From Hormiphora californensis (taxonomy: Eukaryota; Animalia; Ctenophora): a DNA stretch of 64,000 nt. The notes under the pieces are model-generated. The model was not told the origin of the DNA, searched no databases, and was given only the letters and a program-made list of their open reading frames with translations. Of this stretch, positions 1 through 64,000 are shown piece after piece. The stretch's first letter is position 1. Each line of letters starts with the position of its first letter. The stretch spans positions 1,488,001-1,552,000 of the forward strand of contig CM035356.1 of NCBI GenBank assembly GCA_020137815.1. Direction: 5' to 3'. The position numbers and the translations under genes were made by a program.

Positions 1-2107
1 CTTTCCTTTTTACCCACTCCACCATCCCCCTCCAGGAACCTGCCAGTGACTCTCCCTCAGGATCTTCTCAAAACTAATGCCACGGAGATAAGTGACCGGG
101 TGAACTAACAAGAGATTTTCTGTCAAGTATTTGCATGGACGCAGATAGTTTCTCGGTAAGGAACAAGCAGTCGCTCATTGGCAGTTTACTGCACTTTACT
201 AACTCCTATTTTGGGTAAACGAATGGACGAAATACGTAGACGACCCCCCCACCGTGACACAATTGGACCGCTTTGTCTGTAAGTGACATGCCCTAGACGC
301 AACGTAGTTTATACGGGGTCGTCATCCATATGGATAAGTCTTGTCGGAAACTTCAACAAAGCACCACGTATTGCAAAATATTCGTACGAGGACAGAGCTT
401 TGAGCTTACAGACTTTCTGAGATATCCTATTTTTGCTAAGGTTGCCAGGTGTTATGATAATAGCCCCTCGCTCATCACAGAAAACTATCGTTGGATCTTT
501 TGTTGGTATTGCAGCCAATCGAACGTTTATTAAGGGGTTCAGTATCAAATTGGATGAAAAGCTTGTCGAAGACTTCAACAACACACCAAACCAATGATGA
601 AAAAAACGAGAGACAGAGACTTTCGAGTTACATGATTTTTGAGTTTGATGTTAATTTTCTTCAAAGGTGCTGGGTTGTTGTTATTGTGGGAAGGATGATG
701 AGAGAGAATTGTATAAGAAGAAAGACTGTTTTTCGTGCGAGCATCTTTGATTTTGTGTATCTGTGTGAGAGTGTGTGTTTTTTGTACTGTGTATCAAGTG
801 TTATGTATACGGGAAATAATTGCGTTTTACCATGTTGAAAATCTCGCTGTTTTGAAATGTGTATGGGGCAAGTGGCAACACGGTGTCTGTCCCCAATTTG
901 TTTGTTCGTTTTCTACCTCTCCGGTGTCTGTGTTCTAAAACTGGCAAGTGTATTATAGCACACTCGCTTGTCCATGTCTAATTTTATCTCATTTGACTTC
1001 GTTAAAGTACTTCTTGATGTCAGTAGGCCTTTTAGATTGTCTAACTCTGTGAAGTGTTAGTATACTTTCCGTGATATCTGTATGTAGTGTATTTATATGT
1101 GTAGTCTATAGCTGCATCGTCGGGTCTGGTTTGTCTTATTACTGCTGGACGTGTAACGGCCCCTCCATAGTACATATTAGGAGGGGCACGACGTGCCCAA
1201 AGCACTGCACTGGTCTCCCGAACTATTTGAATTGCAGCTGCAGTTGCCAGCTAATAGCTATCTGCTAAAGGGTGCTGCATCTGTCAGCGCGATGTCTGAC
1301 CACTCTTCACGAGAAAGGGTTAGTGCAATGCCTGACAGGGCAGCAGTGATGCAATACCCTCTTATCCCTCTGAAATTTTGCAACAACCTCTTAGTTTCTT
1401 CTTTTTGGGGGGGGGGGGGGGAGAGCATTCCCGTAAACAATCTTTGATACTGAGATTCTTCTTGCAAGATTTTGTTGCAAGATTTGTACGTTTTGTAAGT
1501 GCAGAAGAGTAAAACCAGCTCTTCTCTTGCTACAGCTGCAATATATTAATTTATAAATGAATATGTAAAGATGCCCCTCCCTTTTATGTATCATATTAAT
1601 GTTCGGGCTGCACCAATTGTTGTTAGAAATATACTCTCAACTTGAAACCCGGGGTTCGCTCTTTTAAAAATCAAGACGACAGTGTTCCGATTGCACTTCC
1701 GATATCGCCATACGGTGAATTTTACCTGAAATTTAGCAGTATTAGATATTTTGACGCAACAATTAGGCCTATTATAGCTGTTTTGTTTGGCTGCTCCTTG
1801 GTGACGTGTTCTTTGTCTTTTATGCGCTAAATAATAAACAATAGCAACTTCAGAGAGAGGACTCATTGTCATTAACAATGTGTTAACACCCCACTCTAGT
1901 TATTGATCTTGTTAATACTGCACATACCATTCTGAAAAGCAAATACGAGTGGTCCGTGTTTATCCACCGCCACTTTTATTGTATCCCCGGTCTTGTTCCG
2001 TGAACCCGTCTGTGCTGATCCAGGTCGCCTTGTGTGGGGGTACGTCTGTCTGAGTTGGGCCCCCTGTTGCTGCAGCACCCCTCTACTGCAGGGTTGCCTG
2101 AAATTAA

Positions 2108-3411
2108 GGGTACACCTGGCGTTTTTCATCATCGAGTGCCCAACCAAATGACTTCACCAGGGTTTAGGTCATACAAAATGGACCTCAAATATGCAATTTT
2201 AGCCCTAAAGTCGAATTCATATTTTTGCTACAGCCTATTTTCAAAGTGGCGTTTTTTCAATTTTTGTTGGAATTTTTAACCTCAGGACCACTTTTTTTGA
2301 GATAGAAACATTAAATTCTTGGAATTTGAAGAGAATATAAAGGTGAATAAGCCCAAAGAAGGATTTTTGAAATGGAGCTTATTTCTGGCCATGAGAAGGG
2401 TTTACTTTTTTGCTTCTTTGACACGCTGGCTGAGAATTTTCCCATGCTTCATTAGAGATGAAAATCTGGAAATAGTTGCTCAAAACGATTATCTATGTGG
2501 CCCAAAAATTTTGGAACTTTCCCGCCAAAGATGTGGTGTACAGAGCTTGTTTTGTGAAACCCGTCTTTTTGAAAAAGAGAGGAATTCCCTGTATCTCCAA
2601 AACGGATGATCGTAGAGACCTGGGACCAAACTTAATCGATTCAGAAGGTCCAATTTTGGGGGGGTCTTCTGAGAGACATTTTGCTCCTACTCCAACCGTT
2701 TTTGCTGTAATTGCAAAAAAACAATTCTATGAAAAGGGGGAACAACTCTATTCCAGTAGCCTGCTTCGGGCTGATTTCCCCCTTACTTGCTGATACCTTT
2801 TTCGCAATTACAGCAAAAACGGTTGGAGTAGGAGCAAAATGTCTCTCAGAAGACCCCCCCAAAATCGGACCTTCTGAATCGATTAAGCTTGGTCCCAGGT
2901 CTCTACGATCATCCGTTTTGGAGATACAGGGAATTCCTCTCTTTTTCAAAAAGACGGGTTTCACAAAACAAGCTCTGTACACCACATCTTTGGCGGGAAA
3001 GTTCCAAAATTTTTGGGCCACATAGATAATCGTTTTGAGCAACTATTTCCAGATTTTCATCTCTAATGAAGCATGGGAACATTCTCAGCCAGCGTGTCAA
3101 AGAAGCAAAAAAGTAAACCCTTCTCATGGCCAGAAATAAGCTCCATTTCAAAAATCCTTCTTTGGGCTTATTCACCTTTATATTCTCTTCAAATTTCAAG
3201 AATTTAATGTTTCTATCTCAAAAAAAGTGGTCCTGAGGTTAAAAATTCCAACAAAAATTGAAAAAAACGCCACTTTGAAAATAGGCTGTAGCAAAAATAT
3301 GAATTCGACTTTAGGGCTAAAATTGCATATTTGAGGTCCATTTTGTATGACCTAAACCCTGGTGAAGTCATTTGGTTGGGCACTCGATGATGAAAAACGC
3401 CAGGTGTACCC
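2108..3411. mobile_element. Non-autonomous foldback DNA transposon with ~615-bp inverted arms and TTAA flanks (Kolobok-like termini)
   Basis: TTAA|GGGTACACCTGG at 2104-2119 and CCAGGTGTACCC|TTAA at 3400-3415. Arms ~2108-2721 and ~2798-3411 are near-identical reverse complements (the ORF track gives mirror-image ORFs) around a ~75-bp spacer. No transposase. TTAA plus purine termini fits Kolobok better than piggyBac (CC termini). Confidence 0.8.
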
Positions 3412-4986
3412 TTAAGGAGGGTCTCGTCATCCCCCAAACACATGCCTCACAATAGCACATGGTTTAGAGGTAATTTCATGATTTGAGCCTGTTTAGTGTT
3501 TTCTCCGAATCAATCAGGTCATGTATTTGGGGTATTTGACCGCATGATGTATGCTTTGGTCATAGGACCAGGCTAGGAACTATAGTTTCTAGTTAACTAG
3601 GAAGCTATTATAGCTGGATTATATAGCAAGCTTTATTAATATTTATTAATTGCTCACAGTTGCTGTTGTTACAAAACTGTATTTGACTAGTTCTATATTT
3701 CTGTAGAACTTAGAAACTTTGTGATTTTTCGTTTTATCATAGTGATTCATTTACCAACGGGGGGACCTTGTTGAGCAAGGGACACCCTTATGTAGTAGCA
3801 CATAACTTTATATGTTTAGTAATTAACTTTTGAGAACTTTTGAGTTTTGACGCAAAAGCTTTGATACTATCAAAGTTATCGTGTCAAATTTATAGGTCCC
3901 TCATGCAACTAACTCTCAACTTCGTTTGATTTTGACAGTCTAATTGATTTTATTACGATTATTGATCACAAAAACGCAAATTTTCGACCTTGTTAGGCTT
4001 TAAAATTAAAATTTGATTTTAACTTTGAGTTTAACTTATAAACTGACAATTTTATTTTTTTAGTCATGCATGACCTACTCTAATTTATCATTTAACTAGT
4101 CAAAAGTTGGTGAATTTTCTGTTCTACTGAATGCATAACCAGGCTGCCATTCTAACTAGCAGCTGTACCAGACTGACAGGTGGACAGCCCACGGGTTGAG
4201 ATTGGTATGAATAGTTATGTCTCCTTCCTCTCATATCTATTTTCTCTCAGTACTACTGAAAGTAGCTTTGCCTGCTGCAGGCTACCTCCGCACCTCCGCA
4301 CCCGGCAAGATAGTTCTAATAACATGTAGCAACATGGTGAACCGGCTTGTAATGGTGTGTTCTGAACCCCATTTCCCAAGATTAGGGGAACGAATTCTCT
4401 ACTACTCTGTTTTTCAACGTCGCCGGCCTCTCTTTTTTCACCAACCTTTTTGTTTTAGAGCATTGTATTTCACAACTTGAACGTCTTGTTCTTGTCGGTT
4501 GGTACAAACTGTCTGGACAGACCTGAAGAGAAGAGTGGAATATCCATGGAATATTTTAGGAAAGAAACTATGAATTTGGGTGTTGGCATCCGAATTTGTC
4601 TCTTTCCGATCATATTTGTCAGGAAAAGCAAGAAACTATTAATTGCATGAATAACCTTTTAGTTTAACTAAAAGGTTATTCATGTAAAATACTTTAATCG
4701 ATTTTGCGACAAATTACTTCTAGTTGTGTAGTTAAAGTTACAACATTTATGAAGACAACCCCTCCCTTCAATTTCGACACTATCTCTATTATAATTTGGA
4801 GATGTCGCGTCGAAGTGGCCGTTCGTTAGGCGGTATCTAAGCGACAGACTACTCCTTCATAAAACACTTCATGTACCCAAAGCTGTAAGTGTAAAGCTGC
4901 CATTTACACTTTTGGAACTTCCAATGGAAGTTTGTAAATATTTTCGAATGACTTTCAAAGTGCCAGTCCCCATATTTATCAATTCA

Positions 4987-8747: not shown

Positions 8748-9012
8748 CTATCATGGTAATCAGACTTCAGACACCGATTTATAACGGAGATGATCCAGGT
8801 AAAAGATTTTGCCTGATAAATAGGGGTCAGATTGTACCAGATTGGATGTTCTCTTTTGCGTGGCCTACCTACACATTACTCACAACCTCCAGTTTCCTTC
8901 TTCCCGTACCCGGCCTCCTCAACTGGATAAACCATGCAATAAGCAATATTTTACTTTTGAAAAACTTTCGATTTGATGGTTTACTTTGCGGGAAGTGCGG
9001 GTAGTTATTCGA

Positions 9013-9367
9013 GAGACAGAGACAGAGACAGAGACAGAGACAGAGACAGAGACAGAGACAGAGACAGAGACAGAGACAGAGACAGAGACAGAGACAGAGA
9101 CAGAGACAGAGACAGAGACAGAGACAGAGACAGAGACAGAGACAGAGACAGAGACAGAGACAGAGACAGAGACAGAGACAGAGACAGAGACAGAGACAGA
9201 GACAGAGACAGAGACAGAGACAGAGACAGAGACAGAGACAGAGACAGAGACAGAGACAGAGACAGAGACAGAGACAGAGACAGAGACAGAGACAGAGACA
9301 GAGACAGAGACAGAGACAGAGACAGAGACAGAGACAGAGACAGAGACAGAGACAGAGACAGAGACAG
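9013..9367 (+). repeat. (GAGACA)n microsatellite, ~59 units
   Basis: Perfect hexamer array; explains the RD/ET/LC low-complexity ORFs. Confidence 0.98.
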
Positions 9368-13278: not shown

Positions 13279-14654
13279 ATGCCTAACGACACAGTGGCCG
13301 TTATAGATTGTGGCACCCATACTACAAAATGTGGGATCAGCGGGGAGAGTCTTCCCCGACTTATCTCCCCCAATGTCATCGCTATGGAGGAGGATGGGGA
13401 GGTATGGGTGGGTAGCGATGCCCTCAGAAAAAGGAGGAGCTGCAAACTTGTCAGGCCCATGAATAGAGGAAGGATCGTGGGGTGGAGCGATATTGAGAAG
13501 GTAATATTAATAGTTGAACTGTCACCGTCCACCGATATTCCGAGAGAGATTGAACTTTTAACGAGGCTTTCGTCTCCATAACTCCGAGAAATAAGTCTCA
13601 TATCAGAGGTTCCCTGATTGATTCCCAATATCTGATCCTCCATTCCCCCAGGTATGGACACACACCCTTGAGTGGGATCTAGGACTAAACCCAAAGGAGA
13701 CCACCGTCCTTCTAACAGAAGCCCCCGATGAACCTCCCCGGATACGAGAGTTAAAAGCGGAGATTATGTTTGAGAATCTTGGTATACCCAGGTTTTGTTT
13801 AGCTAACCAGGCGGTGCTGAGTTTGTATGCTGAGGGCCGGACATCCGGTGTTGTCGTAGATATTGGGGCTGGTTCTGCTTGTGGGATCGCTGTCTCATCT
13901 GGTGAGTAAAGACATTATTCCTACTGTTATCCAATTTTTGAAAGCTCGATCTATTATGCAGTTTGCATTACCATACCCCCCCCCCCAGATAACCACTAAC
14001 CCACGTCACTATAACCCATGTCACTACCCATCAGGTAATATGGTTGGTGGATACCACTCCCTCCCTTATACTGGCGATGCCATAACCACCTCCCTTCTTC
14101 ATGAGTTCAGCTCCCTCGGATTCAGCCCCTCCTCAACTACCCACAGAGACATTGTCAACCACATCAAGGACACTCATTCCTTCATATCCTCCTCCTCCTC
14201 CATGACACCCTATGTAGTGGACTATACCCTACCAGATAGAAGGAAAGTGTCCATTAAATCGGGTCTGGTTAACCTGGATAAGTGGATGTTTACCGGTGAA
14301 ACCTCCCTGACTCGTGTTGTAAAGGATTGTGTGGGCTTATTGGACCAGGATCATGGCCTCAGTAACGTAGTTCTCAGTGGCGGGGTGAGTGACTGTCTGG
14401 GACTGAGGGAGAGACTATCTAGCTCCCTCCTGCCCCACAACATCATAGTTGGAGAGGCCAGCCCTATTGGCAAGTGTAGATATTTGAGTTGGATTGGGGG
14501 TAGTGTTCTTGGCTCCCTCTCTACATTTGATAGGCTGTCAGTTAGTGCTGCCGAGTATGAGGAATACGGGCCGGGACTTATTAACCAGAGGGCCGCCATG
14601 GATCGAGATCTGAGTGATATCTATTATGCTATGTACAGCAGCTACGGTGCGTGA
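13279..14654 (+). CDS. Divergent actin-like / actin-related protein, 3 exons (13279-13500, 13652-13901, 14035-14654), ~363 aa
   Basis: Actin motifs AVIDCGTHTTKCG, PMNRGRIVGWSDIEKVW, VLLTEAP, QAVLSLYAEGRTSGVVVDIG, YTLPD, NVVLSGG, SWIGGSVLGSLSTF and EYEEYGP. GT-AG introns are in phase. Confidence 0.88.
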
Positions 14655-16423: not shown

Positions 16424-33180
<16,757 letters not shown>

Positions 33181-34055: not shown

Positions 34056-34182
34056 GCCCAAGTTAGGGTTCCACGCTCGCGGGGCCATTGACTTGATCAT
34101 CCAGGGTTCCCAGTTTCAATCCCGTTTCTTACACCAATAATACGATACAACTGTTTAGGTAGCGTTAATAAATGAACGGGGA

Positions 34183-36026
34183 ATGGAATCAGGGAGCTAT
34201 GCACAAGAGGGACGTCCTCGGATAGCTGAAATCGATAAAAACTCCATCCACTTCTTACAAGTTCTCGACCGTGGTAGTTTTGGGACGGTGTCCCTGGCTG
34301 TTTGGAATGGTGAAAATGTTGCTGTGAAGGTATTCGACACTCACGAGGAGAAAGATGCCTTTAAAACAGAGGTGGATGTCCTGGCGAATGTGTCCCATCC
34401 CAACATTATTGAACTGTATGGTATGGTGGTGGGTGAGACGTGTATGATAGTGATGGAGCTCGCTACCCAGAACTCTCTCTACAATCTCCTGCACCGGAGA
34501 CTGGATATACCCTACAAAAAGGAGCACATGGTGTCTTGGTGGTATGAGATTGCGGATGCGATAGGGTACCTTCACTCTCACAAACCTAAACCTATAACAC
34601 ACAGAGACCTTAAAAGTAGTAACATCTTGCTCAAGGATGATCATATTAAAGTGTGTGATTTTGGGACAGCTTGTGATGTTAGATCTCTCATGTCCAATGC
34701 CAAGGGAACCGTTTCTTGGATGGCTCCGGAGGTGAGTAATAAGGGTGGGGATTGAATGACATGTGGGGGATGGTTACTTACTGGCGCTAGAATGAGCTGT
34801 CATCCATTTGTTGGGAGCAACATTTATACTATCCTCCATTAAAGATAATCTTTGAGCCGTCAATTAGATAATTCCTTTTTGCTCTGTGGTGGGGTTTTTT
34901 AATTGCTTTAGCTTCTCGAGACTCGAACTGTCAAGTTTGACTCTTTTTGTCTTATCTATCAAGTAAATAGCACTGAGCACTACCAAGTTTGGGTGGCATT
35001 ACTATCCTTCCTCGCTCTTCTAAAATTCTTTTTCTTCTGGTGATGGCGTCACATCCTCGAGTTTCTTTAAACCCGCCCCCTCATCTCCTTCTATTAAGTC
35101 TCCACTCCCTGTGACCTCCCTCTATCACTCTACCACATTTAATTGTTACTCCTCCCCTCTAGTGACCAGTCCCCTAGCTCTCCTCTCACTCTACCACATT
35201 TAATTGTTACCCCTCCCCCTCCTTCCCCCAGGTGATTGTCGGTGAGACCTACAACGAGAGGTGTGACGTGTACAGTTTCGGTCTGGTGATGTGGGAGATC
35301 TTGATGAGACGTGTTCCCTTCAAGGGTCTCAACCCCTTCCAGGTCATGCAGGCAGTTAGCCAGAAGAAGCAAAGACCACCCCTGCCAGAGACAATACCAC
35401 GGTGTATTAGGACTATTATCGTGTTGTGCTGGAATCACGAACCTCATGTTAGACCCGATTTTGAGGCGTTGTTGGATATTCTCAGTCATCTGATGGGAAG
35501 TGTTGCAGAGTTGGATATTCAGGATCCACCGACCGGGGAGGCTGTTGTTGAGGAGGTGGTGGAGGAGGACCCTGTTGTACTTCCCCAACCTCACACCCCA
35601 GAGGTGATAGCACCTGGTCCCTCCTCCGCTGTAGCAGCGGTACCTTCACCCCCTCGATTCCCAATCACACCCGGGTCGTGCAGCCCCTCCCCCACAACAC
35701 CTCTCTCCTCATCAACTCCTTCCGGTCCTCCCCGGGTAAAGACTGATGATATCGCACCCTACCCCCATTGTATTGCAAATAACCCGGAAAGCACTCAACT
35801 CTACTCAGTTCACTGTAGTGCGCACGAAGAATTACAGATCCTGAACTCGCATCTCCGAAGAAAAGAGAGTGTTTATAAGAGTTTGTCAGAGAAGTTAAAG
35901 GAATCAAAACAGATTGAGGTGTCTTTGAATGCCCAGAAGGAGGAGAGACAGTTGAGATTGACAATATTGAAGAGTGAAAATGAAACTATGCACGAACAGC
36001 TCAACTACGCTCTTGATAATCCATGA
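34183..36026 (+). CDS. MAP3K7: TAK1-like MAP kinase kinase kinase, 2 exons (34183-34731, 35232-36026)
   Basis: Kinase motifs RGSFGTV, VAVK, HRDLKSSN, KVCDFGTACD, GTVSWMAPE|V and DVYSFG..WE. C-terminal PHC...ESTQLYSVHC plus a coiled coil resembles the TAK1 TAB2/3-binding tail. Confidence 0.85.
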
Positions 36027-50901: not shown

Positions 50902-56064
<5,163 letters not shown>

Positions 56065-56355
56065 TAGACATTGGGGGCGCCCTACTACTACTACTGCAGC
56101 TACCCACCACCTTCTTACATGCCTATCATTAAGAGGTATGTAGAATTATATTGTATGTTGACTCAACATACCATTGGGGGTCGATGAGGTAATGAGGGGA
56201 GTGGGCAGGGTTATAATTGGGATTCAGAGTTGAGATTGTGGGTTTCAGTCAAATAAAACAACAGTTATTGTGTTACTGAATAAAATAATAAATTACCATC
56301 CTCCCCCACTAAAAGCATATAAAAAACTGTGTGTCAGATGCACTTAAAAAGATCG

Positions 56356-59252
56356 TTATAATTTCGCTTTCCTCTTCTTGACTTTCTCCCCTCCCTCACT
56401 CTTCCTCTTCTTCTTCTTCCCTGTCCCCTCTTCCTCTAACATCGCATCTCCATTAGCTTTCACAGTCCTCTTAACGGATATAATGGTATTTCCAGAGAGA
56501 GCAACATCCCCCACATCTCCATCATCCATCTTTATCGCAAACTCATCATCATGTCCAATCAGATCCTTCACCTCTCTCCCTGTTCTCTTTCTCCTTCGCT
56601 TTGAACTCCTCCTCAGCCTTGTTCAGCTCCTCAGCAAGGGTTGACAGTGGGGCACCGTTAGGAACCTTACTGGTAGGGAGTGATCATCTCAGAGCTAATT
56701 TCAGCTTTCCATGCCTCCTCCATGTGTGTCACGGTCTTCTTCATGATCTTTTTGAAGATCCCCATAATTTGGCTGGTTTCCAACTCTGGGTAGAGGGTGG
56801 ATGTTTGATCAACACTCCTGTATTGTAGACCCAGGGATATGAGAATTGATGATTGGAGCGGGGATAAGTTCAGGTTGATCTTTCCCCCAAAGTACAGTTT
56901 AGTAACAGTTGGTACCAGATCCAGGATTATGTGATAATCAGTTAGGTTGTCAGTATAACTTTTCAACCTTCTAAAGTCATACTTGCTTACTACCCCACTC
57001 CACGATTCACTACCAGCAGGTGCTGTATTGAGTACCCCACTACTGTTTACAAGATTAAGAACCATTTGAGGAGGGAGCTTTCTGAACTCATAACCTAGCA
57101 AGTTCAGCAGCCGGCAAGAGAAATCCGAGTGGTATTCGTTCAGCCAGGATTGTCCCCAGCTCTGGACCATGATGCAGGTGTGCTCTCCCGTTATATCGTT
57201 CGGTGTTTGCCGCAGATACACACTCTGGAACTTCTGTCGCTTCCAAAACCGAAGGAGTTGAGGGGTTATACCATAACTTACCCCGATATAATCAATCGAT
57301 TCTGGTGTCCGCTCATTCAGTGATACAAGTAGAGTTTGGTCGTCCTTAGACTCGCTAGTCGCTATCTTTCCCTGGTAGTACTGGCTCAGTAGGTTGATGG
57401 CATGTTTTCCATAGCCCATACTTTGGAAGTCAGGGTGTGTGGCGATCCGGACCACTCTCACCCCAGATAACTCTCCAAAGTTGGGATCCTGGAACTGCTG
57501 GCAAAGAGTCCAGGGGATCAAGTCACCGGCTGACCTGTGCCCCTTCTCCAACTCGGCCATAACGATAGCTTTGTTAATCTGACCTTCAAAACACACCTGC
57601 ACCACACAAAGAACCTCAGGGAGGGATGCTGATTCTGGGTCTATCGGACCTAACAACACCAGCAGCTGATGAGCAGGGGCATCCGATAACAGTTGCAGAT
57701 CATTGGGAGAGTTCTTGTAGTGACTGGAAACGTAGAGCGTCATGATCCGATGCAGGAATGCTTCCGATGCCTTGTGGTAGCTGAACAATACATCCTTGTT
57801 GACGAAATACAAGGAACAATCAGCGGGAATTGGACAGCCCGATATAATCCGGGGTGAAGCATCTAAACAAAGGAGTTTGTTGAGCCATGCCTCCACAGGA
57901 TCTCCATCTTTGTACCTTATCGGTTCCTCTAGTTTTAGTTCGCTCAGTGCCTTCCCGCCAAGTTTCTGGGATTGCGTTCTCAGTTCATCAAACAGTTTTA
58001 TAGACAGCGACCGACCAGTTCCCTCATATCCATGAACCGTGGAGGAGAGCAGCACCAAATAGGGCCCAAACATTTGCTTAACAAGGTGGAGAGGAATAGC
58101 CCCGGCTTCATCAATAACCAACAGCTCCGCTTGTAACAGTTTCCCAGCCTCGTCAGGCTTGATGTACTGAATGGTCTGTCTGTGATCTCTATACACATTC
58201 ACTCTCACCACTGACTTCACGTTGTTCTCCGTGCTCTGGATGATCTCATAATCAGTATGTTCCTGGAACCCCAGCACATCGAATCCCTTCATAACAAACT
58301 CGAACAATGTCTTCAGATTGTCCGGGGAGGGAGATGTCACGAAGATGTTTGAGTAGCCAAATGCTATACTGGTTGCCATTGCCAAACCAAGAGCAGCTGA
58401 TTTCCCCCGACCTCTAGAGGCAGTTAGGGTGATAGTTGAGCGGAGCGCCTTCTCAGATATCACATCCACAAATTTAACCAGAGCATTAGCTTGATCCAGA
58501 GTTTTACACAGCCCCACAACAGAGCCAACAGGTTGTGTATCAGCCAGGGTGTCCTTTAGTTTTCCAAGCTCCTCGTGTTGCGACTGGCGGAGGTTTGTAG
58601 GAGGGTTTACATTTTTAGCAGAAAAGGGCAGTACCTCCAGATTGTCAGTCAGCACGAGACAATTTGAACAGTCAGTCAGGGAGAGGAGGAACCTTTTGTT
58701 AAACCTCGGCACTACAGTGTGATATGCAGAAGTTTTAAACCGGTCATGACAGTCCATCTGTAGATCATAGAGCTGCTTCACATCGCTCACCGAGTTGAGG
58801 ACCATGACGACCAATCCTCCACCCTGGACAGTCTCAATGGTCCGAGCAAGGACATTAGGGGTGACAGCCTCGAAGTCCTGTAGTACACACATCCCATACG
58901 TGTTTCCCAGAATGTTATGGCTCTCCTTGTAGTACAGGTATCTGATTTCGGTGGCCGAGATAAACATCTCAAATGTATCGTCCTTGTTTGGATCGAGAGT
59001 ACCAGCTTTAATTTTCTTCTTGATCATTTTCATCCTTTTCTTCTTGTGTGTGGTGAACCCGAGATCATTCTTGTAGCACCACAACACATTGGGACGGGCT
59101 GCTATGGTAGCCTTACTGAGGAGATGATGGAGTATGACGACCTGATCTCGTGCCCGCTCCCCGACCACAGCAAAAAGTCCACGGTGGCCAGATTTCACTG
59201 ATTCTTGGATAATTTTGTGTATCCTACTGTCGAGCTTCTTTGACTGGACCAT
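56356..59252 (-). CDS. NAT10: RNA cytidine acetyltransferase NAT10/Kre33; intronless CDS with two apparent +1 frameshifts near the 3' end
   Basis: KKLDSRI, VLWCYK, ILGNTYGMCVLQDFEA, TASRGRGKSAALG (P-loop), LVIDEA, GYEGTGRSLS, SHYKNSPNDLQ and RIATHPDFQSMGYG (GNAT). The tail continues in other frames as PLSTLAEELNKAEEEF and EVKDLIGHDDEFAIK...KKRKAKL*. Confidence 0.95.
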
Positions 59253-59313
59253 CTAGAAGGGAATTCAAAGGTAAATAAAGGTTAAATATTTAGCAAAATT
59301 CAGCAGAAAGGTA

Positions 59314-59358
59314 GAGTTTCAAACTTTCATCAACTACAACGTAAAACTATTTATTGAG
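59314..59358 (+). other. Spliced-leader-like 45-mer at the LINE 5' end
   Basis: GAGTTTCAAACTTTCATCAACTACAACGTAAAACTATTTATTGAG resembles ctenophore SL exons as I recall them (GAGTTT(C)AAACTTT..CAAC..CTAC...TTGAG). It is followed by GCGG, not a GT donor. Confidence 0.7.
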
Positions 59359-59425
59359 GCGGCACCCCCCCTCAATTGTTTCAGTCGTATGACCCTACAA
59401 TAATCGGAGGAGGCTGATTACAAAT

Positions 59426-60772
59426 ATGACTGCAACAACTGTAGTGCAACCTGAAAAGTCGGCTGACAAGAAGTCGAAAAAAGAGCCTGTGAGGACTGTG
59501 ATACCTGAATTTCTGCTGGCCGAAGCACCTCCCCGCGCCAAAGCGGTACTTGAGTTCTACAACAAGCTGGAATGCAAGGTGGACGCCATGTTGAGCGAAG
59601 TTATCATCAAGATCAAGTCCAAGTTTAGTGCGCCGTACATCGAAGAACTTGCTAACTACCTATCTCTAGACATTCGGCAAACTGAAAATGACAAGGGCTA
59701 CAGAAATATTCCTGTCCTAATTCACCGCTGTATTTTGAAAGTCAGGTCATATACCCCGAGCACGTGCGGGGTCTGCTTGGAAAGTTACTGTGTCGAGAAA
59801 GACACTGTACCCGTTTTCACTTGTTGGATGTGTTTCCAGGGAAGCCACGACTGTGAAGGAGTTGCCAAAATCTTCTCCACCCTGTACACCATCACTCAGC
59901 CACTGACGGGATTTAACTGGACCTGCCACTCCTGCACCGAGAAGAGTAGTCTCGATCTAATGTCGAGGATACCTGTTATCCCGGGGAAAGACGAACCCGT
60001 GATAGTGCCAGACGAAATCGCCGATCCCCCTGGCATTGCTGCAGAAGTTGTAGCTGAAGAGGTACCAGCTGGGGAATCTTATACGGCCCCTTGTACATTC
60101 CTTGCAGAAGGCTACTGCAGGCACGGGATATCCGGGAAAAAGGAAGTGAATGGGAAAACCTGCCGTTTTACCCACCGTAAAGTCTGCAGAAAATTCAAGC
60201 TGTACGGATCTCACTCACGCCATGGGTGTAAGTTGGGTGCAAAGTGCTCAAAACTGCATCCAAAATTATGTGAGGGCTCACAGCGGAGAATGAAGGAGCG
60301 GCAGTGCCTAAACCCTGATTGCCCACATCTCCACCTCAAGGGTACACGAAGGAAAGTGGAAAACCCTGAAAGGAGAGAACGTCAGGAAGTTGTTAGGACA
60401 ACACAGCAACCTAACACTCACGCCACTGACCACAGAGAGAGAGTGCAGGATGAACAACTCCCTCTTAGCGGCTCACCATTGCGACCAGTTTCGCAGCAAA
60501 ACCCTGGACACTTACAATCGGGTTTTCTGAGCATTGTTTTGAAGGAGGTCAGGAATGCGAGAGAAGAATCACTGAGGCAAGCGGACAGAATGGAAGAAAT
60601 TCTCTCCCAGCTTGGTCCAACCCACAACGAGTCAATACTGCACAACCAGCTAGCCCACCACTTACAAGCACACCCGCCGGTGCAGTACACTCTACCAACA
60701 GGTACCCTCACTCAAGGAGTACATCGGCAACTACCGACCCAAATACTGCCCTCTCAAAGATTATCCTACTAA
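59426..60772 (+). CDS. LINE ORF1 protein, 448 aa (PHD-like finger plus three CCCH-type fingers)
   Basis: CGVC...CWMCFQGSHDC...WTCHSC; CTFLAEGYC...CRFTH; CRKF...GCKLGAKCSKLH; CEGS...CLNPDCPHLH. Confidence 0.85.
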   Translation: MTATTVVQPEKSADKKSKKEPVRTVIPEFLLAEAPPRAKAVLEFYNKLECKVDAMLSEVIIKIKSKFSAPYIEELANYLSLDIRQTENDKGYRNIPVLIHRCILKVRSYTPSTCGVCLESYCVEKDTVPVFTCWMCFQGSHDCEGVAKIFSTLYTITQPLTGFNWTCHSCTEKSSLDLMSRIPVIPGKDEPVIVPDEIADPPGIAAEVVAEEVPAGESYTAPCTFLAEGYCRHGISGKKEVNGKTCRFTHRKVCRKFKLYGSHSRHGCKLGAKCSKLHPKLCEGSQRRMKERQCLNPDCPHLHLKGTRRKVENPERRERQEVVRTTQQPNTHATDHRERVQDEQLPLSGSPLRPVSQQNPGHLQSGFLSIVLKEVRNAREESLRQADRMEEILSQLGPTHNESILHNQLAHHLQAHPPVQYTLPTGTLTQGVHRQLPTQILPSQRLSY

Positions 60773-63762
60773 ATGGGAGAAGTATTTCACCAGCCGCTGG
60801 GGGGAACACTCGGTGGAAACTCCCCTTCATCGAGGCTGTTTTGCTCAACAACCCAAACTCACCGCCGACAGTTGCCCTTGCAATAACTGAGTCATGGTTG
60901 AAAAACTACATTGCAGACGCCCAAATCAAAATGCAGGGATACAGCACCTTCCGTTCTGACCGTCCTGATCGGAAAGGAGGAGGTTGTGTGTTATACATTC
61001 GTGAAGACATCCCAATCAGCTATGCATACTCATTCAGTGACCGGGAATGCAGTCTGGTATTGGCTTTTAGTAAAGCTAAAAACATGTTGTTTTCATGTAT
61101 CTACCGTCCCCCCGAATCATCTGACCAGTCCTTCATCACAGTTATGAACGATCTCCAAGATAAAATTGATCTCCTGTCCAATGAAAGGAGCCCTGAAATG
61201 TTTATCATGGGCGATCTAAACTTGCCATTGTTCAACTGGAAAGAAGAATCCCTACCGTCAGCTGCTGCTAACATAGCAGCTTATCAACGAACTGTGAACT
61301 TCATCGAGGAAAACTTCCTGACTCAGGTCGTTGACAAACCAACCAGAGGCAATAATATTCTGGATGTTATAATGACCAACTCACCACAATACGTATCAAC
61401 TGTGACAACTGAAGAGACAAAGATCTCTGACCACAGAATAGTTGACTGTACCCTGGTGATAAACCCCCTTATGAAGACAGCAGATACCATCAAAAAGTGG
61501 GACCACATGAGTTTTCGAGGGTTGGACATTCCAAAAGCCAATTTTGAAGAAATGAATGTGGACATTGCTTCTGTTGACTGGGACAAACTGCAGACATTAT
61601 GTGAAGAGTCTGGAGACCCTGTTGGTGACAAATTCAAAGAACTTTTCATTCTAACTGTTTTGCAAATCACCATCAAACACACCCCTCAGAAGATTCAGCG
61701 GAGAAAATTCAGCCCCCTGGAACCACTGAGAAGGAGAAGGCGGAAGTTAAAAGCAAGACTTGGAGCAATTTCTTCTGTCAACGTTAACATCTCAAAAACT
61801 GAAGAACTCCAAGACGAACTCACAGCACTTGAGGACAAGATACAGAACGCTGTAGATGAATCGATCGAAAAGAAGGAACACAGTTCCATTAAGACGATCA
61901 AGGAGAATCCACGATATTTCTTCTCCTACGCTAAACGACTTTCAAAAGTTAAATCGAACATCGCCCCCCTCAAACGTGATGACGGAACACTCACCACGGA
62001 CAATACTGAAAAAGCGGAACTCCTGCAAAAACAGTACTGCAGTGCCTTCAGTGATCCAGACGGGGGAGACTTGCTGAAAAGTCTCTCTTGGGTAGAGGAT
62101 AGCAATACGATTTTAGAGGATTTCATTTTTACCTCAGAGGACATCAAAGGAGCTCTCTCTGAGCTTGATCCTGCTTCTGCCGGACCAGATGGTGACATCC
62201 CTGCTAAAATTCTCAGTGCTTGTAAAACCACTCTCGCTGTACCACTCTTTCTTCTTTGGGAGCGGTCCTTCGAAGAAGGAATAACACCCCCTAACCTGAA
62301 AAAACAATACATCACACCAATCTTCAAGCGTGGTGATAAAACTCTGGCTGTTAACTACCGCCCTGTTTCGCTGACTTCTAACTTGCTAAAAACGTTTGAG
62401 CGAGTTGTACGAAATAAGTTAGTGGAACACCTGGAAAGTAACAATCTCCTACCAGACAGCCAACATGGATTTAGGAAGCAACGGAGCTGTCTCACACAAC
62501 TACTCGATCACATGGATGGAATTTTTCGAGAGTTAAACAGTGGAAATGAAGTCGATGTTATCTATTTGGACTATTCCAAAGCCTTCGACCGTGTCAACCA
62601 CACCATTCTCATTGCCAAGCTGGAAAAGCTAGGTATTAGAGGGAAAGTACTAAAGTGGATAAAAGACTTCCTTACTGGCCGGTATCAAACAGTAACCGTC
62701 GACGGAGAAAAATCGAACTTTGAGCTTGTCAAAAGTGGGGTACCTCAAGGAACCGTACTTGGACCAATCCTCTTTATCATCTACGTAGCTGATCTCCAGA
62801 GCCAAGTGATCCACAGCAAAATCAGAACCTTTGCGGATGACACCAAGCTCCAGAAGAGCGTCGACTCGGAAGAATCAGGAGCAGAAATGCAAGAGGATCT
62901 TCAGCGTGTGGTGGAGTGGTCTGCAGCCAATTGTATGACACTCCATGAGGACAAGTTCGAGGTCATCCACTACACTCTGAACAGAACGTCCCTTCTCAGA
63001 GAACTCCCTTTCACTCATGAGTTAAGCTTATATGTGACTCCAGGTGATAACGAAATACAGCCAAAGGATACAGTGAAAGACCTTGGCATCACCCTCTCAA
63101 ACAATGGCTCCTGGACAGACCATGTAATGAGGATTTCATCAGAAGCACGACGGATGGCCGCCTGGGCACTGAGAGCTTTTAAAGATAGGTCAGTGACCAC
63201 TATGCTGACACTCTACAAGTCACTAATAAGGTGCAAAGTAGAATACTGCTCACCTCTGTGGTCGCCCTACAAGATTGGTGACATTCAGGCTCTGGAAAGC
63301 ATCCAGAGACAGTTTACACGACGGATCGAAGACATGGCACAACTTGACTATTGGGAGCGGCTGAAAAAGCTAAGACTTATGTCATTACAACGTCGGCGGG
63401 AGCGATATTCGATAATACAAATGTGGAAAATCTACAATGGTGCAGCACCTAATAGCACGAATACCCGGTTTTACCATCATCAACGGCTCGGCGTCCGAGC
63501 CGAAGTACCTACTCTTTACAGTGGAGCACAGAAGTCATTCTCAACAAAATACTTCCATTCATTTGCTGTAAGGGCCGCTCGGCTATGGAACACATTGCCG
63601 AAAGAGGTTAACACAGCAGCGACCTTAGATACGTTCAAGATCCTGCTGGGCCGTTGGCTGGACCACTTCCCTGACAATCCACCTGTGAAGGGTTATTCTA
63701 CCCGGAACAACAATTCTATCATGGACTGGGTTTTGGAGGTTCGAGCTAAAGGGGGATGCTGA
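60430..63762 (+). CDS. LINE ORF2, APE endonuclease plus reverse transcriptase; frame open from 60430 and overlapping ORF1
   Basis: KIILLNGRSI (upstream of the track's TTG start at 60841), ITESWL, GGGC, IYRPP, MGDLN, LDVI, SDH; NYRPVSLTS, QHGFR, YLDYSKAFD, GVPQGTVLGP, FADD, KDLGI. Confidence 0.93.
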
Positions 63763-64000
63763 AAAGACTGACACCGTTTACGATTCTGTAATGAAGTTTA
63801 TTTATCAAGTTTATCAAGTTTATCAAGAAAATATTCGAAAAGTCACTTTTCAAAATTCAAAAGTGAGTTCAACAAATAAAAAAACTAAAAAGTTTGTCAC
63901 AGGGATCCCTAATAAAGTTGTGACTTGTCACTGTAGTCTTGCGGAGGCGCGGTTGTGACTTGTCACCGCGTGTGCGCGTACCAAAACGCACGTGGTTCCC

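What the first reader, a model, noticed from the sequence alone, without database searches (positions are those of the whole stretch)
59314..63827. Full-length LINE capped by a spliced-leader exon: a candidate trans-splicing-dependent retrotransposon
Seen: an intact CR1/L2-group LINE whose ORF1 ATG is preceded by only 67 nt and then by the 45-mer GAGTTTCAAACTTTCATCAACTACAACGTAAAACTATTTATTGAG. Recalled, not verified: ctenophores use SL trans-splicing with leaders of this length and form. An SL RNA gene would continue with a GT donor and an Sm site; here the next bases are GCGG. Inference: this is an SL-trans-spliced LINE mRNA that was reverse-transcribed to its very 5' end. The genomic SL copy ends in an AT-rich ...TTATTGAG, so it could itself serve as the trans-splice acceptor. 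Each read-through transcript would then receive a fresh capped SL and regenerate the same 5' end without an internal promoter. This differs from NeSL/SLACS/CRE elements, which insert into SL RNA genes using restriction-like endonucleases; this element has an APE endonuclease and lies beside a housekeeping gene.
Basis: partly seen in the sequence, partly recalled or inferred. Interest (0 to 1): 0.92.

Follow-up and report, generated by a model that had tools for sequence, protein, structure and literature searches.

The report
Comb-jelly LINE headed by spliced leader
An intact jumping gene in a comb-jelly genome, missing from the same site in two other DNA samples, begins exactly with a variant of the short leader that comb jellies splice onto their mRNAs, so it was likely copied from a leader-capped RNA; whether its whole family depends on that leader is untested.

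Summary
Observation confirmed. The host is a Pleurobrachia-type ctenophore (NAT10 99% to P. bachei). An intact APE+RT LINE spans 59314-63827. Two DNA runs show the empty site (joint 59312 to 63826, 3-nt ambiguity), so the 45-mer belongs to the insertion and is its first part. The 45-mer is a ctenophore-type leader (first 14 and last 5 bases equal the published Hormiphora leader; 37 of 47 columns) and is very high-copy in genomic DNA. It is not the 44-nt leader seen on 2 of 2 Pleurobrachia-type mRNA contigs, and its use on mRNAs was not shown. Most likely the copy was reverse-transcribed from a trans-spliced RNA to its cap. Other copies' 5' ends could not be read. Precedent exists: SL-capped CR1 transcripts in Hydra, genome-encoded SLs on Schistosoma elements, dinoflagellate SL relics. 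This scan noted SL-headed LINEs before in other genomes (dinoflagellates, Perkinsus, tunicates, Euglena). Side finding: ORF2 lacks a start codon and is likely made by a conserved -1 frameshift. New variant of a known kind; interest 0.55.

The parts
59313..59315 (+). 5' junction: 3 bases that fit either side (3-bp target duplication, of which the last two equal the first two bases of the leader)
   Evidence: joint 59312 to 63826 with 'both'=3 in X2 and X6; junction print
59314..59358 (+). 45-nt ctenophore-type spliced-leader exon copy; first part of the insertion
   Evidence: first 14 and last 5 bases equal the Hormiphora/Pleurobrachia 44-nt leader, 37 of 47 columns; absent from the empty site; bin depth 128-538 times single-copy in 3 DNA runs
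59359..59425 (+). 67-nt 5' UTR: 7-bp stem with the leader end (59353-59359 with 59370-59376), pyrimidine tract and CAG at 59384, uORF from 59389
   Evidence: stem P about 0.03 in 20000 shuffles, post hoc; pyrimidine counts
59426..60772 (+). ORF1, 448 aa, PHD-like Cys cluster and CCCH-like fingers
   Evidence: 6 relatives at 44-90%; alignment; no Pfam hit; Atlas leads RING/CCCH at 0.78 only; the domain labels are read by eye from the Cys/His spacing
60520..60526 (+). candidate -1 frameshift heptamer (G GGT TTT, in the SGFL codons of ORF1)
   Evidence: only in-frame canonical heptamer in ORF1; SGFL in 6 of 6 relatives; -1 frame open from here into APE in the window and in P0189, P0217
60469..63762 (+). 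ORF2 reading frame (-1 to ORF1): APE endonuclease from about 60754, reverse transcriptase, no start codon before APE
   Evidence: relatives incl. Mnemiopsis and P. bachei models
63801..63827 (+). 3' tail of three 9-nt tandem units; last two bases overlap the target duplication
   Evidence: joint
63826..63828 (+). 3' copy of the 3-bp duplication
56667..59252 (-). host NAT10 coding exon; its ATG follows a pyrimidine tract and TAG acceptor, so the LINE sits antisense in its outron or first intron

Best explanation
This is an intact, polymorphic APE-type LINE of a Pleurobrachia-type comb jelly whose first 45 bases are a ctenophore-type leader exon, likely because the RNA that was copied had been trans-spliced. 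Steps: (1, inferred) a source copy was transcribed from an upstream or internal promoter and the leader was spliced on at an ordinary acceptor just in front of the 67-nt UTR, replacing an outron; (2, inferred) ORF1 was translated from the ATG at 59426 and ORF2 by a -1 frameshift at 60520; (3, shown by the junctions, mechanism from established TPRT knowledge) the endonuclease cut with a 3-nt stagger, the tail primed on a 2-nt match, reverse transcription ran to the first base of the leader and joined on a 2-nt match; (4, shown) the result is an insertion 61 bases upstream of NAT10 that other DNA samples lack. On this reading the leader is a tag of the RNA intermediate, as in dinoflagellate retrogenes, and the leader's own GAG is not the usual acceptor.
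For: Empty site puts the boundary within 2 bases of the leader's first base. The leader joins the UTR exactly at the exon end, with no GT intron part. The 45-mer is far more abundant than this LINE family's 5' part (X2 bin depth 23337 against 435 in the next bin and 63 single-copy) and is followed by many different sequences in DNA (9, 14 and 2 contigs at three places in X2; 14 in X6), so it is a host-wide sequence, not this family's private head (summed contig depth is no copy number). No position of the 45-mer is among the 40 best-supported differences shown of 850, while four body positions are (weak). At least 56% of Hormiphora Iso-Seq reads carry a leader (PMC8527503). About 30% of Hydra TE reads carry one, including a full-length CR1 transcript (PMC12220107). 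Six genome-encoded SL exons are merged to Schistosoma elements (PMC5832876).
Against: The 45-nt variant was seen on no mRNA: 0 of 121 scanned loci carry it, and both leader-capped contigs (L059, whose protein is identical to a P. bachei model, and L079) carry the 44-nt form. In X7, possibly RNA, the leader bin has depth 1.03 against 5.3 for NAT10 and none of 21 laid contigs looks like a 45-mer-capped 5' end (low depth, RNA only a guess). No copy with an outron in front of 59359 was seen, but only 24 of 459 loose ends were shown. A route that discards the promoter should be selected against in an autonomous family (inference). The UTR pairs with the leader end over 7 bp (P about 0.03, post hoc), which fits a lasting association.
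Confidence: 0.48

Rival explanations
1. Fixed leader head. The leader was captured once and is now the permanent 5' end of the family; an internal promoter starts RNA at its first base, so the RNA mimics a trans-spliced mRNA without being spliced. The hairpin would mask the acceptor-like CAG.
For: The head differs from the 44-nt leader found on Pleurobrachia-type mRNAs. 7-bp stem between leader end and UTR; one X8 contig has a one-base insertion after 59376 that would lengthen it to 8 bp. Depth 18 bases after the junction (741, 26625, 754) is not below the ORF1 bins in 3 of 3 DNA runs. Leader relics are proposed as basal promoters in dinoflagellates (PMC5585692).
Against: The 45-mer is hundreds of times deeper than this family's 5' part and precedes many unrelated sequences, as a live host leader would. 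No promoter test is possible with these tools.
Confidence: 0.24
2. Self-acceptor cycle. Copies have no promoter; read-through RNA is trans-spliced at the GAG that ends the genomic leader copy, which renews the same 5' end each round.
For: It explains a head that matches a current high-copy leader and ends exactly at the exon end. An AG inside dinoflagellate relics is proposed as an acceptor for a new leader (PMC5585692).
Against: GAG is a rare acceptor (recalled). Its upstream 18 bases are 50% pyrimidine against 83% for the CAG at 59384, which should win and delete 26 nt; no joint 59358 to 59385 is among the 9 joints listed, though 14 small-indel rows were hidden. The predicted stem covers the GAG. 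This copy is antisense to NAT10.
Confidence: 0.2
3. Chimera or artefact. The reverse transcriptase switched template from a 5'-truncated LINE RNA to a leader-bearing RNA, or the window is misassembled here.
For: The window has bases seen in no contig of X2, X6 or X8 (59438, 61885, 62041, 62799) and an extra base in NAT10, so it holds errors or comes from a third individual; no flank-to-leader contig was among the 32 pieces shown.
Against: A switch would not be expected to land exactly on the exon end; both junctions fit target-primed insertion with a 3-bp duplication; both ORFs are intact.
Confidence: 0.08

Closest known systems
SL-capped CR1 and other TE transcripts of Hydra vulgaris (PMC12220107; passages and the Fig. 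S5 legend seen)
   Same: CR1-type LINE RNA with a host leader at its 5' end in a non-bilaterian animal.
   Different: Shown on RNA there; the passages seen do not report genomic copies that begin with the leader. Here the leader is in the DNA and marks the insertion boundary.
Genome-encoded SL exons merged to transposable elements in Schistosoma mansoni (PMC5832876; passages seen)
   Same: Six such cases, read as possibly trans-spliced and retro-transcribed.
   Different: The authors could not exclude chimeric assembly and give no empty site; here an empty allele fixes the boundary and both ORFs are intact.
Dinoflagellate retrogenes with relict DinoSL (PMC5585692; passages seen)
   Same: Leader at the 5' end of a retroposed copy as a tag of the trans-spliced RNA; same two ideas for re-expression (relic as promoter, relic AG as acceptor).
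   Different: Host genes copied in trans, not an autonomous LINE; different leader and lineage.
CR1/L2-group LINEs (PMC4120745, PMC4316615; passages seen)
   Same: ORF1 with PHD-like motif, APE+RT ORF2, tandem-repeat tail, 5'-truncation gradient.
   Different: 5' end is a leader exon with only 67 nt of own UTR; ORF2 probably joined to ORF1 by a -1 frameshift; CCCH-like fingers.
SL-gene-targeting elements NeSL, SLACS, CRE, CZAR (recalled; PMC4640811 seen in a search listing only)
   Same: Leader sequence next to a non-LTR element.
   Different: Those insert into SL RNA genes with a restriction-like endonuclease; here the leader is absent from the target and the endonuclease is APE.

Membership tests
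APE-type non-LTR retrotransposon (LINE) | ORF2 with APE endonuclease and RT | tested here: met
   Pfam PF14529, PF03372, PF00078 above cut-off; motifs located
APE-type non-LTR retrotransposon (LINE) | Multi-copy with 5' truncation gradient, repeat tail, insertion with short duplication | tested here: met
   depth rises from 435 to 3073 along the element in X2 against 63; tail 63801-63827; empty site with 3-nt ambiguity
CR1 or L2 clade | Placement in an APE+RT tree with named reference elements | not testable with these tools
   no named clade references among the hits; the C-terminal motifs look CR1-like from recall only
CR1 or L2 clade | ORF1 with PHD domain (common in both lineages, PMC4120745) | tested here: inconclusive
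   Cys/His spacing conserved in 5 relatives but no Pfam hit; Atlas leads below 0.9
Ctenophore spliced-leader exon | Similarity to the known leader (conserved 5' block, ends in TGAG, 35-48 nt) | tested here: met
   14 of 14 first and 5 of 5 last bases, 37 of 47 columns
Ctenophore spliced-leader exon | Found at the 5' end of unrelated mRNAs of the species | tested here: inconclusive
   0 of 121 scanned loci carry this variant, 2 carry the 44-nt form; no enrichment in one low-depth possible RNA run; no RNA run of the organism was laid
Ctenophore spliced-leader exon | Encoded by multi-copy SL RNA genes with GT donor and Sm site | tested here: inconclusive
   very high genomic depth in 3 of 3 DNA runs, but the gene form was not read; no genome held
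SL RNA gene (this copy) | GT donor right after the exon | tested here: not met
   next bases are GCGG; no Rfam match
SL-gene-targeting RLE elements (NeSL/SLACS/CRE) | Leader present at the empty target | tested here: not met
   empty site lacks the 45-mer
SL-gene-targeting RLE elements (NeSL/SLACS/CRE) | C-terminal restriction-like endonuclease, no APE | tested here: not met
   N-terminal APE
Ribozyme-headed LINEs (HDV-like) | Self-cleaving ribozyme at the 5' end | tested here: not met
   no ribozyme family at E up to 5 in 59000-61000; head folds no better than shuffles, z -0.16
Trans-splicing-dependent (promoter-less) retrotransposon | All full-length copies begin at the leader and RNA is re-spliced each round | not tested

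The most novel reading that the evidence does not exclude
A ctenophore LINE lineage whose competent, full-length copies all begin with a host spliced leader of a second, undescribed class, and which renews that 5' end through the trans-splicing machinery or by mimicking a trans-spliced mRNA, while making its reverse transcriptase by a virus-like -1 frameshift. Many of the hundreds of dispersed leader copies in ctenophore genomes would then be heads of retro-insertions rather than leader genes.
Probability: 0.4. Interest if true: 0.8.

Novelty: new variant of a known kind. Interest (0 to 1): 0.55.

Why it matters
LINEs must rebuild their 5' end and promoter each round; known solutions are internal promoters and self-cleaving ribozymes. 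A family that is always leader-headed would be a third solution. This copy gives a clean case: intact ORFs, an empty allele and a boundary at the leader's first base, which the Schistosoma report lacked. It also offers a testable reading of the 718 and 491 genomic leader copies reported for Hormiphora and Mnemiopsis, points to a second Pleurobrachia leader class, and gives a candidate -1 frameshift for LINE ORF2 expression, which is poorly understood.

Tried and rejected
No whole genome is held, so copies could not be aligned. Viral contigs: 4 of 4 leader-pattern hits are chance matches inside phage genes; ORF2 found no locus there. Metagenome scan: 115 of 117 hits are chance, 2 are real 44-nt leaders, none is this variant. 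Rfam: nothing at gathering level in the window; two sub-threshold hits inside NAT10 are chance. No stimulatory RNA structure after the frameshift site (z +1.0 to +1.4; one search was folded from slightly wrong start points, z +0.4 and +1.6); no 3' UTR hairpin beyond chance (z +1.97). I first read X6 as heterozygous for the insertion (joint depth 212 against about 525-620); rejected as unproven, since four bases of the window's copy occur in no X6 contig. Derelle et al. 2010 is not held; its report of several leaders per ctenophore species is recalled only. Hormiphora supplements were not readable and may list leader variants. The exact 45-mer pieces were in no paper except the shared 14-mer. 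PMC3795323 had no ctenophore text; PMC7986045, PMC4824033 and PMC2566580 passages added only background. The representative search gave unnamed relatives only. No earlier scan note on this genome or this ORF1.
Full report
Observation. The sequence is as described. The 45-mer lies at 59314-59358, GCGG follows, and the ORF1 ATG is 67 nt later at 59426. ORF1 has 448 codons. A second frame is open from 60469 to 63762 and encodes APE and RT domains above Pfam's cut-offs. Three 9-nt units end the element at 63827. The leader pattern occurs once in the window and in 0 of 100 shuffles. The neighbour on the minus strand is NAT10. Its best hits are a P. bachei gene model at 99% and Bolinopsis microptera at 79%, other animals about 55%, so the host is a Pleurobrachia-type ctenophore.

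Boundary. I laid contigs of 4 of the 22 runs listed on 56000-64000. X6 and X2, from two studies of the same coded organism, join 59312 to 63826 with three letters that fit either side. X8 (another organism) and X7 show no such joint. So the site exists without the element, and the 45-mer is part of the insertion. The three letters read as a 3-bp duplication. The last two of the left copy are the first two of the leader, and the first two of the right copy are the last two of the tail unit. This fits target-primed reverse transcription that ran to the leader's first base. Whether any laid sample carries the insertion is not shown: four bases of the window's copy occur in no contig of X2, X6 or X8. 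Depth rises from 435 at the ORF1 start to 3073 near the 3' end in X2, the usual pattern of a family with many 5'-truncated copies.

Is the 45-mer a leader? The Hormiphora genome paper (PMC8527503, passages) gives a 44-nt leader on at least 56% of Iso-Seq reads, with 718 genomic copies, and 491 copies of the Mnemiopsis motif. The 45-mer shares its first 14 and last 5 bases, 37 of 47 aligned columns. In genomic DNA the bin holding the 45-mer is 370, 128 and 538 times deeper than the neighbouring NAT10 bin in X2, X6 and X8, and its 3' end is followed by many different sequences (summed contig depth is no copy number). Against: a scan of metagenome and viral contigs gave 121 loci, of which 2 are leader-capped mRNA contigs; both carry the 44-nt form, and one encodes a protein identical to a P. 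bachei model. None carries the 45-mer. In X7, RNA only by guess and shallow, the leader bin is not enriched and no contig looks like a 45-mer-capped 5' end. The simplest reading is a second leader class; several leaders per ctenophore species is what I recall from Derelle et al. 2010, which is not held. Its use on mRNAs remains unshown.

How the 5' end is renewed. Three models fit a leader-headed copy. (a) A source copy with an outron gives trans-spliced RNA, and the leader is a tag. (c) A fixed head with an internal promoter. The sequence speaks against (b): the GAG has 50% pyrimidines in the 18 bases before it, a CAG 26 nt downstream has 83%, and GAG acceptors are rare (recalled). That CAG segment is retained, and depth at 59376 is high in 3 of 3 DNA runs. 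The copy is antisense to NAT10, whose own ATG follows a pyrimidine tract and TAG. A 7-bp stem pairs the leader end with the UTR (P about 0.03 in 20000 shuffles, noticed after the fact; the longest leader-UTR complement anywhere else is unremarkable), and one X8 contig has a one-base insertion that would lengthen it. This weakly favours a lasting association, as in (c). For (a): the 45-mer is far more abundant than this family's 5' part, so it is a host-wide sequence, and in Hydra only about 30% of TE reads are leader-capped. I put (a) at 0.48, (c) at 0.24, (b) at 0.20, and chimera or artefact at 0.08. The deciding data, the 5' ends of other copies and of the RNA, could not be read: no genome is held and only 24 of 459 loose ends were shown. 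No ribozyme was found at the 5' end.

Side finding: ORF2 expression. ORF2 has no ATG before its APE start at about 60754 and overlaps ORF1 by 304 bases in the -1 frame. The only in-frame canonical slippery heptamer in ORF1 is at 60520-60526. The SGFL residues it encodes are present in 6 of 6 relatives, in the best-conserved block of ORF1 (0.93, 0.83, 0.67 identity to the three most distant). The -1 frame has 22 stops in the first 348 codons and none in the last 101. Of 120 ORF2 relatives, 24 had a recognisable APE start and 8 of these a long N-terminal extension; two gene models (P0189, 72% APE identity, and P0217, 62%) show GFS followed by an open frame into APE, P0189 at the same 78-residue spacing, and P0210 (44%) is open too. 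The other five do not show it or are fused models. Gene models may hide predicted splices. No stimulatory structure was found. The frameshifting review passages seen (PMC5009743) mention HeT-A, TART and L1 only; one search for CR1 frameshifting listed two papers.

Comparison and novelty. SL-capped CR1 transcripts are reported in Hydra (PMC12220107, passages and Fig. S5 legend). Six genome-encoded SL exons merged to elements are reported in Schistosoma, with misassembly not excluded (PMC5832876, passages). Leader relics tag dinoflagellate retrogenes (PMC5585692, passages). PHD-bearing ORF1s are common in CR1 and L2 (PMC4120745, passages), and CR1 3' ends carry short repeats (PMC4316615, passages); the exact clade could not be tested. 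The element is not an SL-gene-targeting element: the target lacks the leader and the endonuclease is APE. Searches listed no paper on leader-headed LINE copies in ctenophores; the library lacks most subscription papers and Repbase reports. Earlier notes of this scan describe leader-headed LINEs in dinoflagellates, Perkinsus, tunicates and Euglena; they are unchecked and not used as support. Verdict: a real, well-bounded case of a known kind of event in a new phylum, with an open and testable question about family-level dependence. Interest 0.55.

Noticed in passing
window 60469-60772 (+): Candidate -1 programmed frameshift joining ORF1 to ORF2 at 60520-60526, conserved in diverged relatives; no stimulatory structure found.
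   Followed up: partly
window 59314-59358: The 45-mer looks like a second Pleurobrachia leader class, distinct from the published 44-nt leader, with very high genomic depth; in X2 and X6 the majority letters of 14 contigs each begin with ATG one base after it, as retrocopies of trans-spliced mRNAs would.
   Followed up: partly
window 56676 (NAT10, - strand): One extra base relative to all X2 and X6 depth shifts the NAT10 frame and cuts about 100 C-terminal residues; probably an assembly error.
   Followed up: partly
window 59253-59313: The LINE sits 61 bases upstream of the NAT10 ATG, just beyond its pyrimidine tract, and may disturb expression of a housekeeping gene.
   Followed up: no
window 59320-59361, run X7: Loose ends on both sides suggest one contig with a 5'-shortened 45-mer inside unrelated sequence: another leader relic.
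   Followed up: no
window 59335-59339, run X6: A contig holds a fold-back rearrangement of the leader (table 5c).
   Followed up: no
window 63901-64000: Another repeat begins here (five X2 contigs with different upstream ends; 15-nt direct repeat), perhaps a DNA-transposon end.
   Followed up: no
window 2104-3415: 1.3-kb near-perfect palindrome (96%), fold-back or MITE-like.
   Followed up: no
window 27589-29823 (-): 745-codon open frame with only a sub-threshold ADP-ribosyltransferase-domain hint (PF22546, E 0.00086).
   Followed up: no
window 13860-14651 and 34159-36023 (+): Actin-family fragment and protein-kinase exons; tandem arrays at about 9012-9367 and 52490-53630.
   Followed up: no
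L059:3-46 and L079:2347-2390: Pleurobrachia-type mRNA contigs (Rpn9; a secreted 705-aa protein) with the 44-nt leader 2-3 bases before the ATG.
   Followed up: yes
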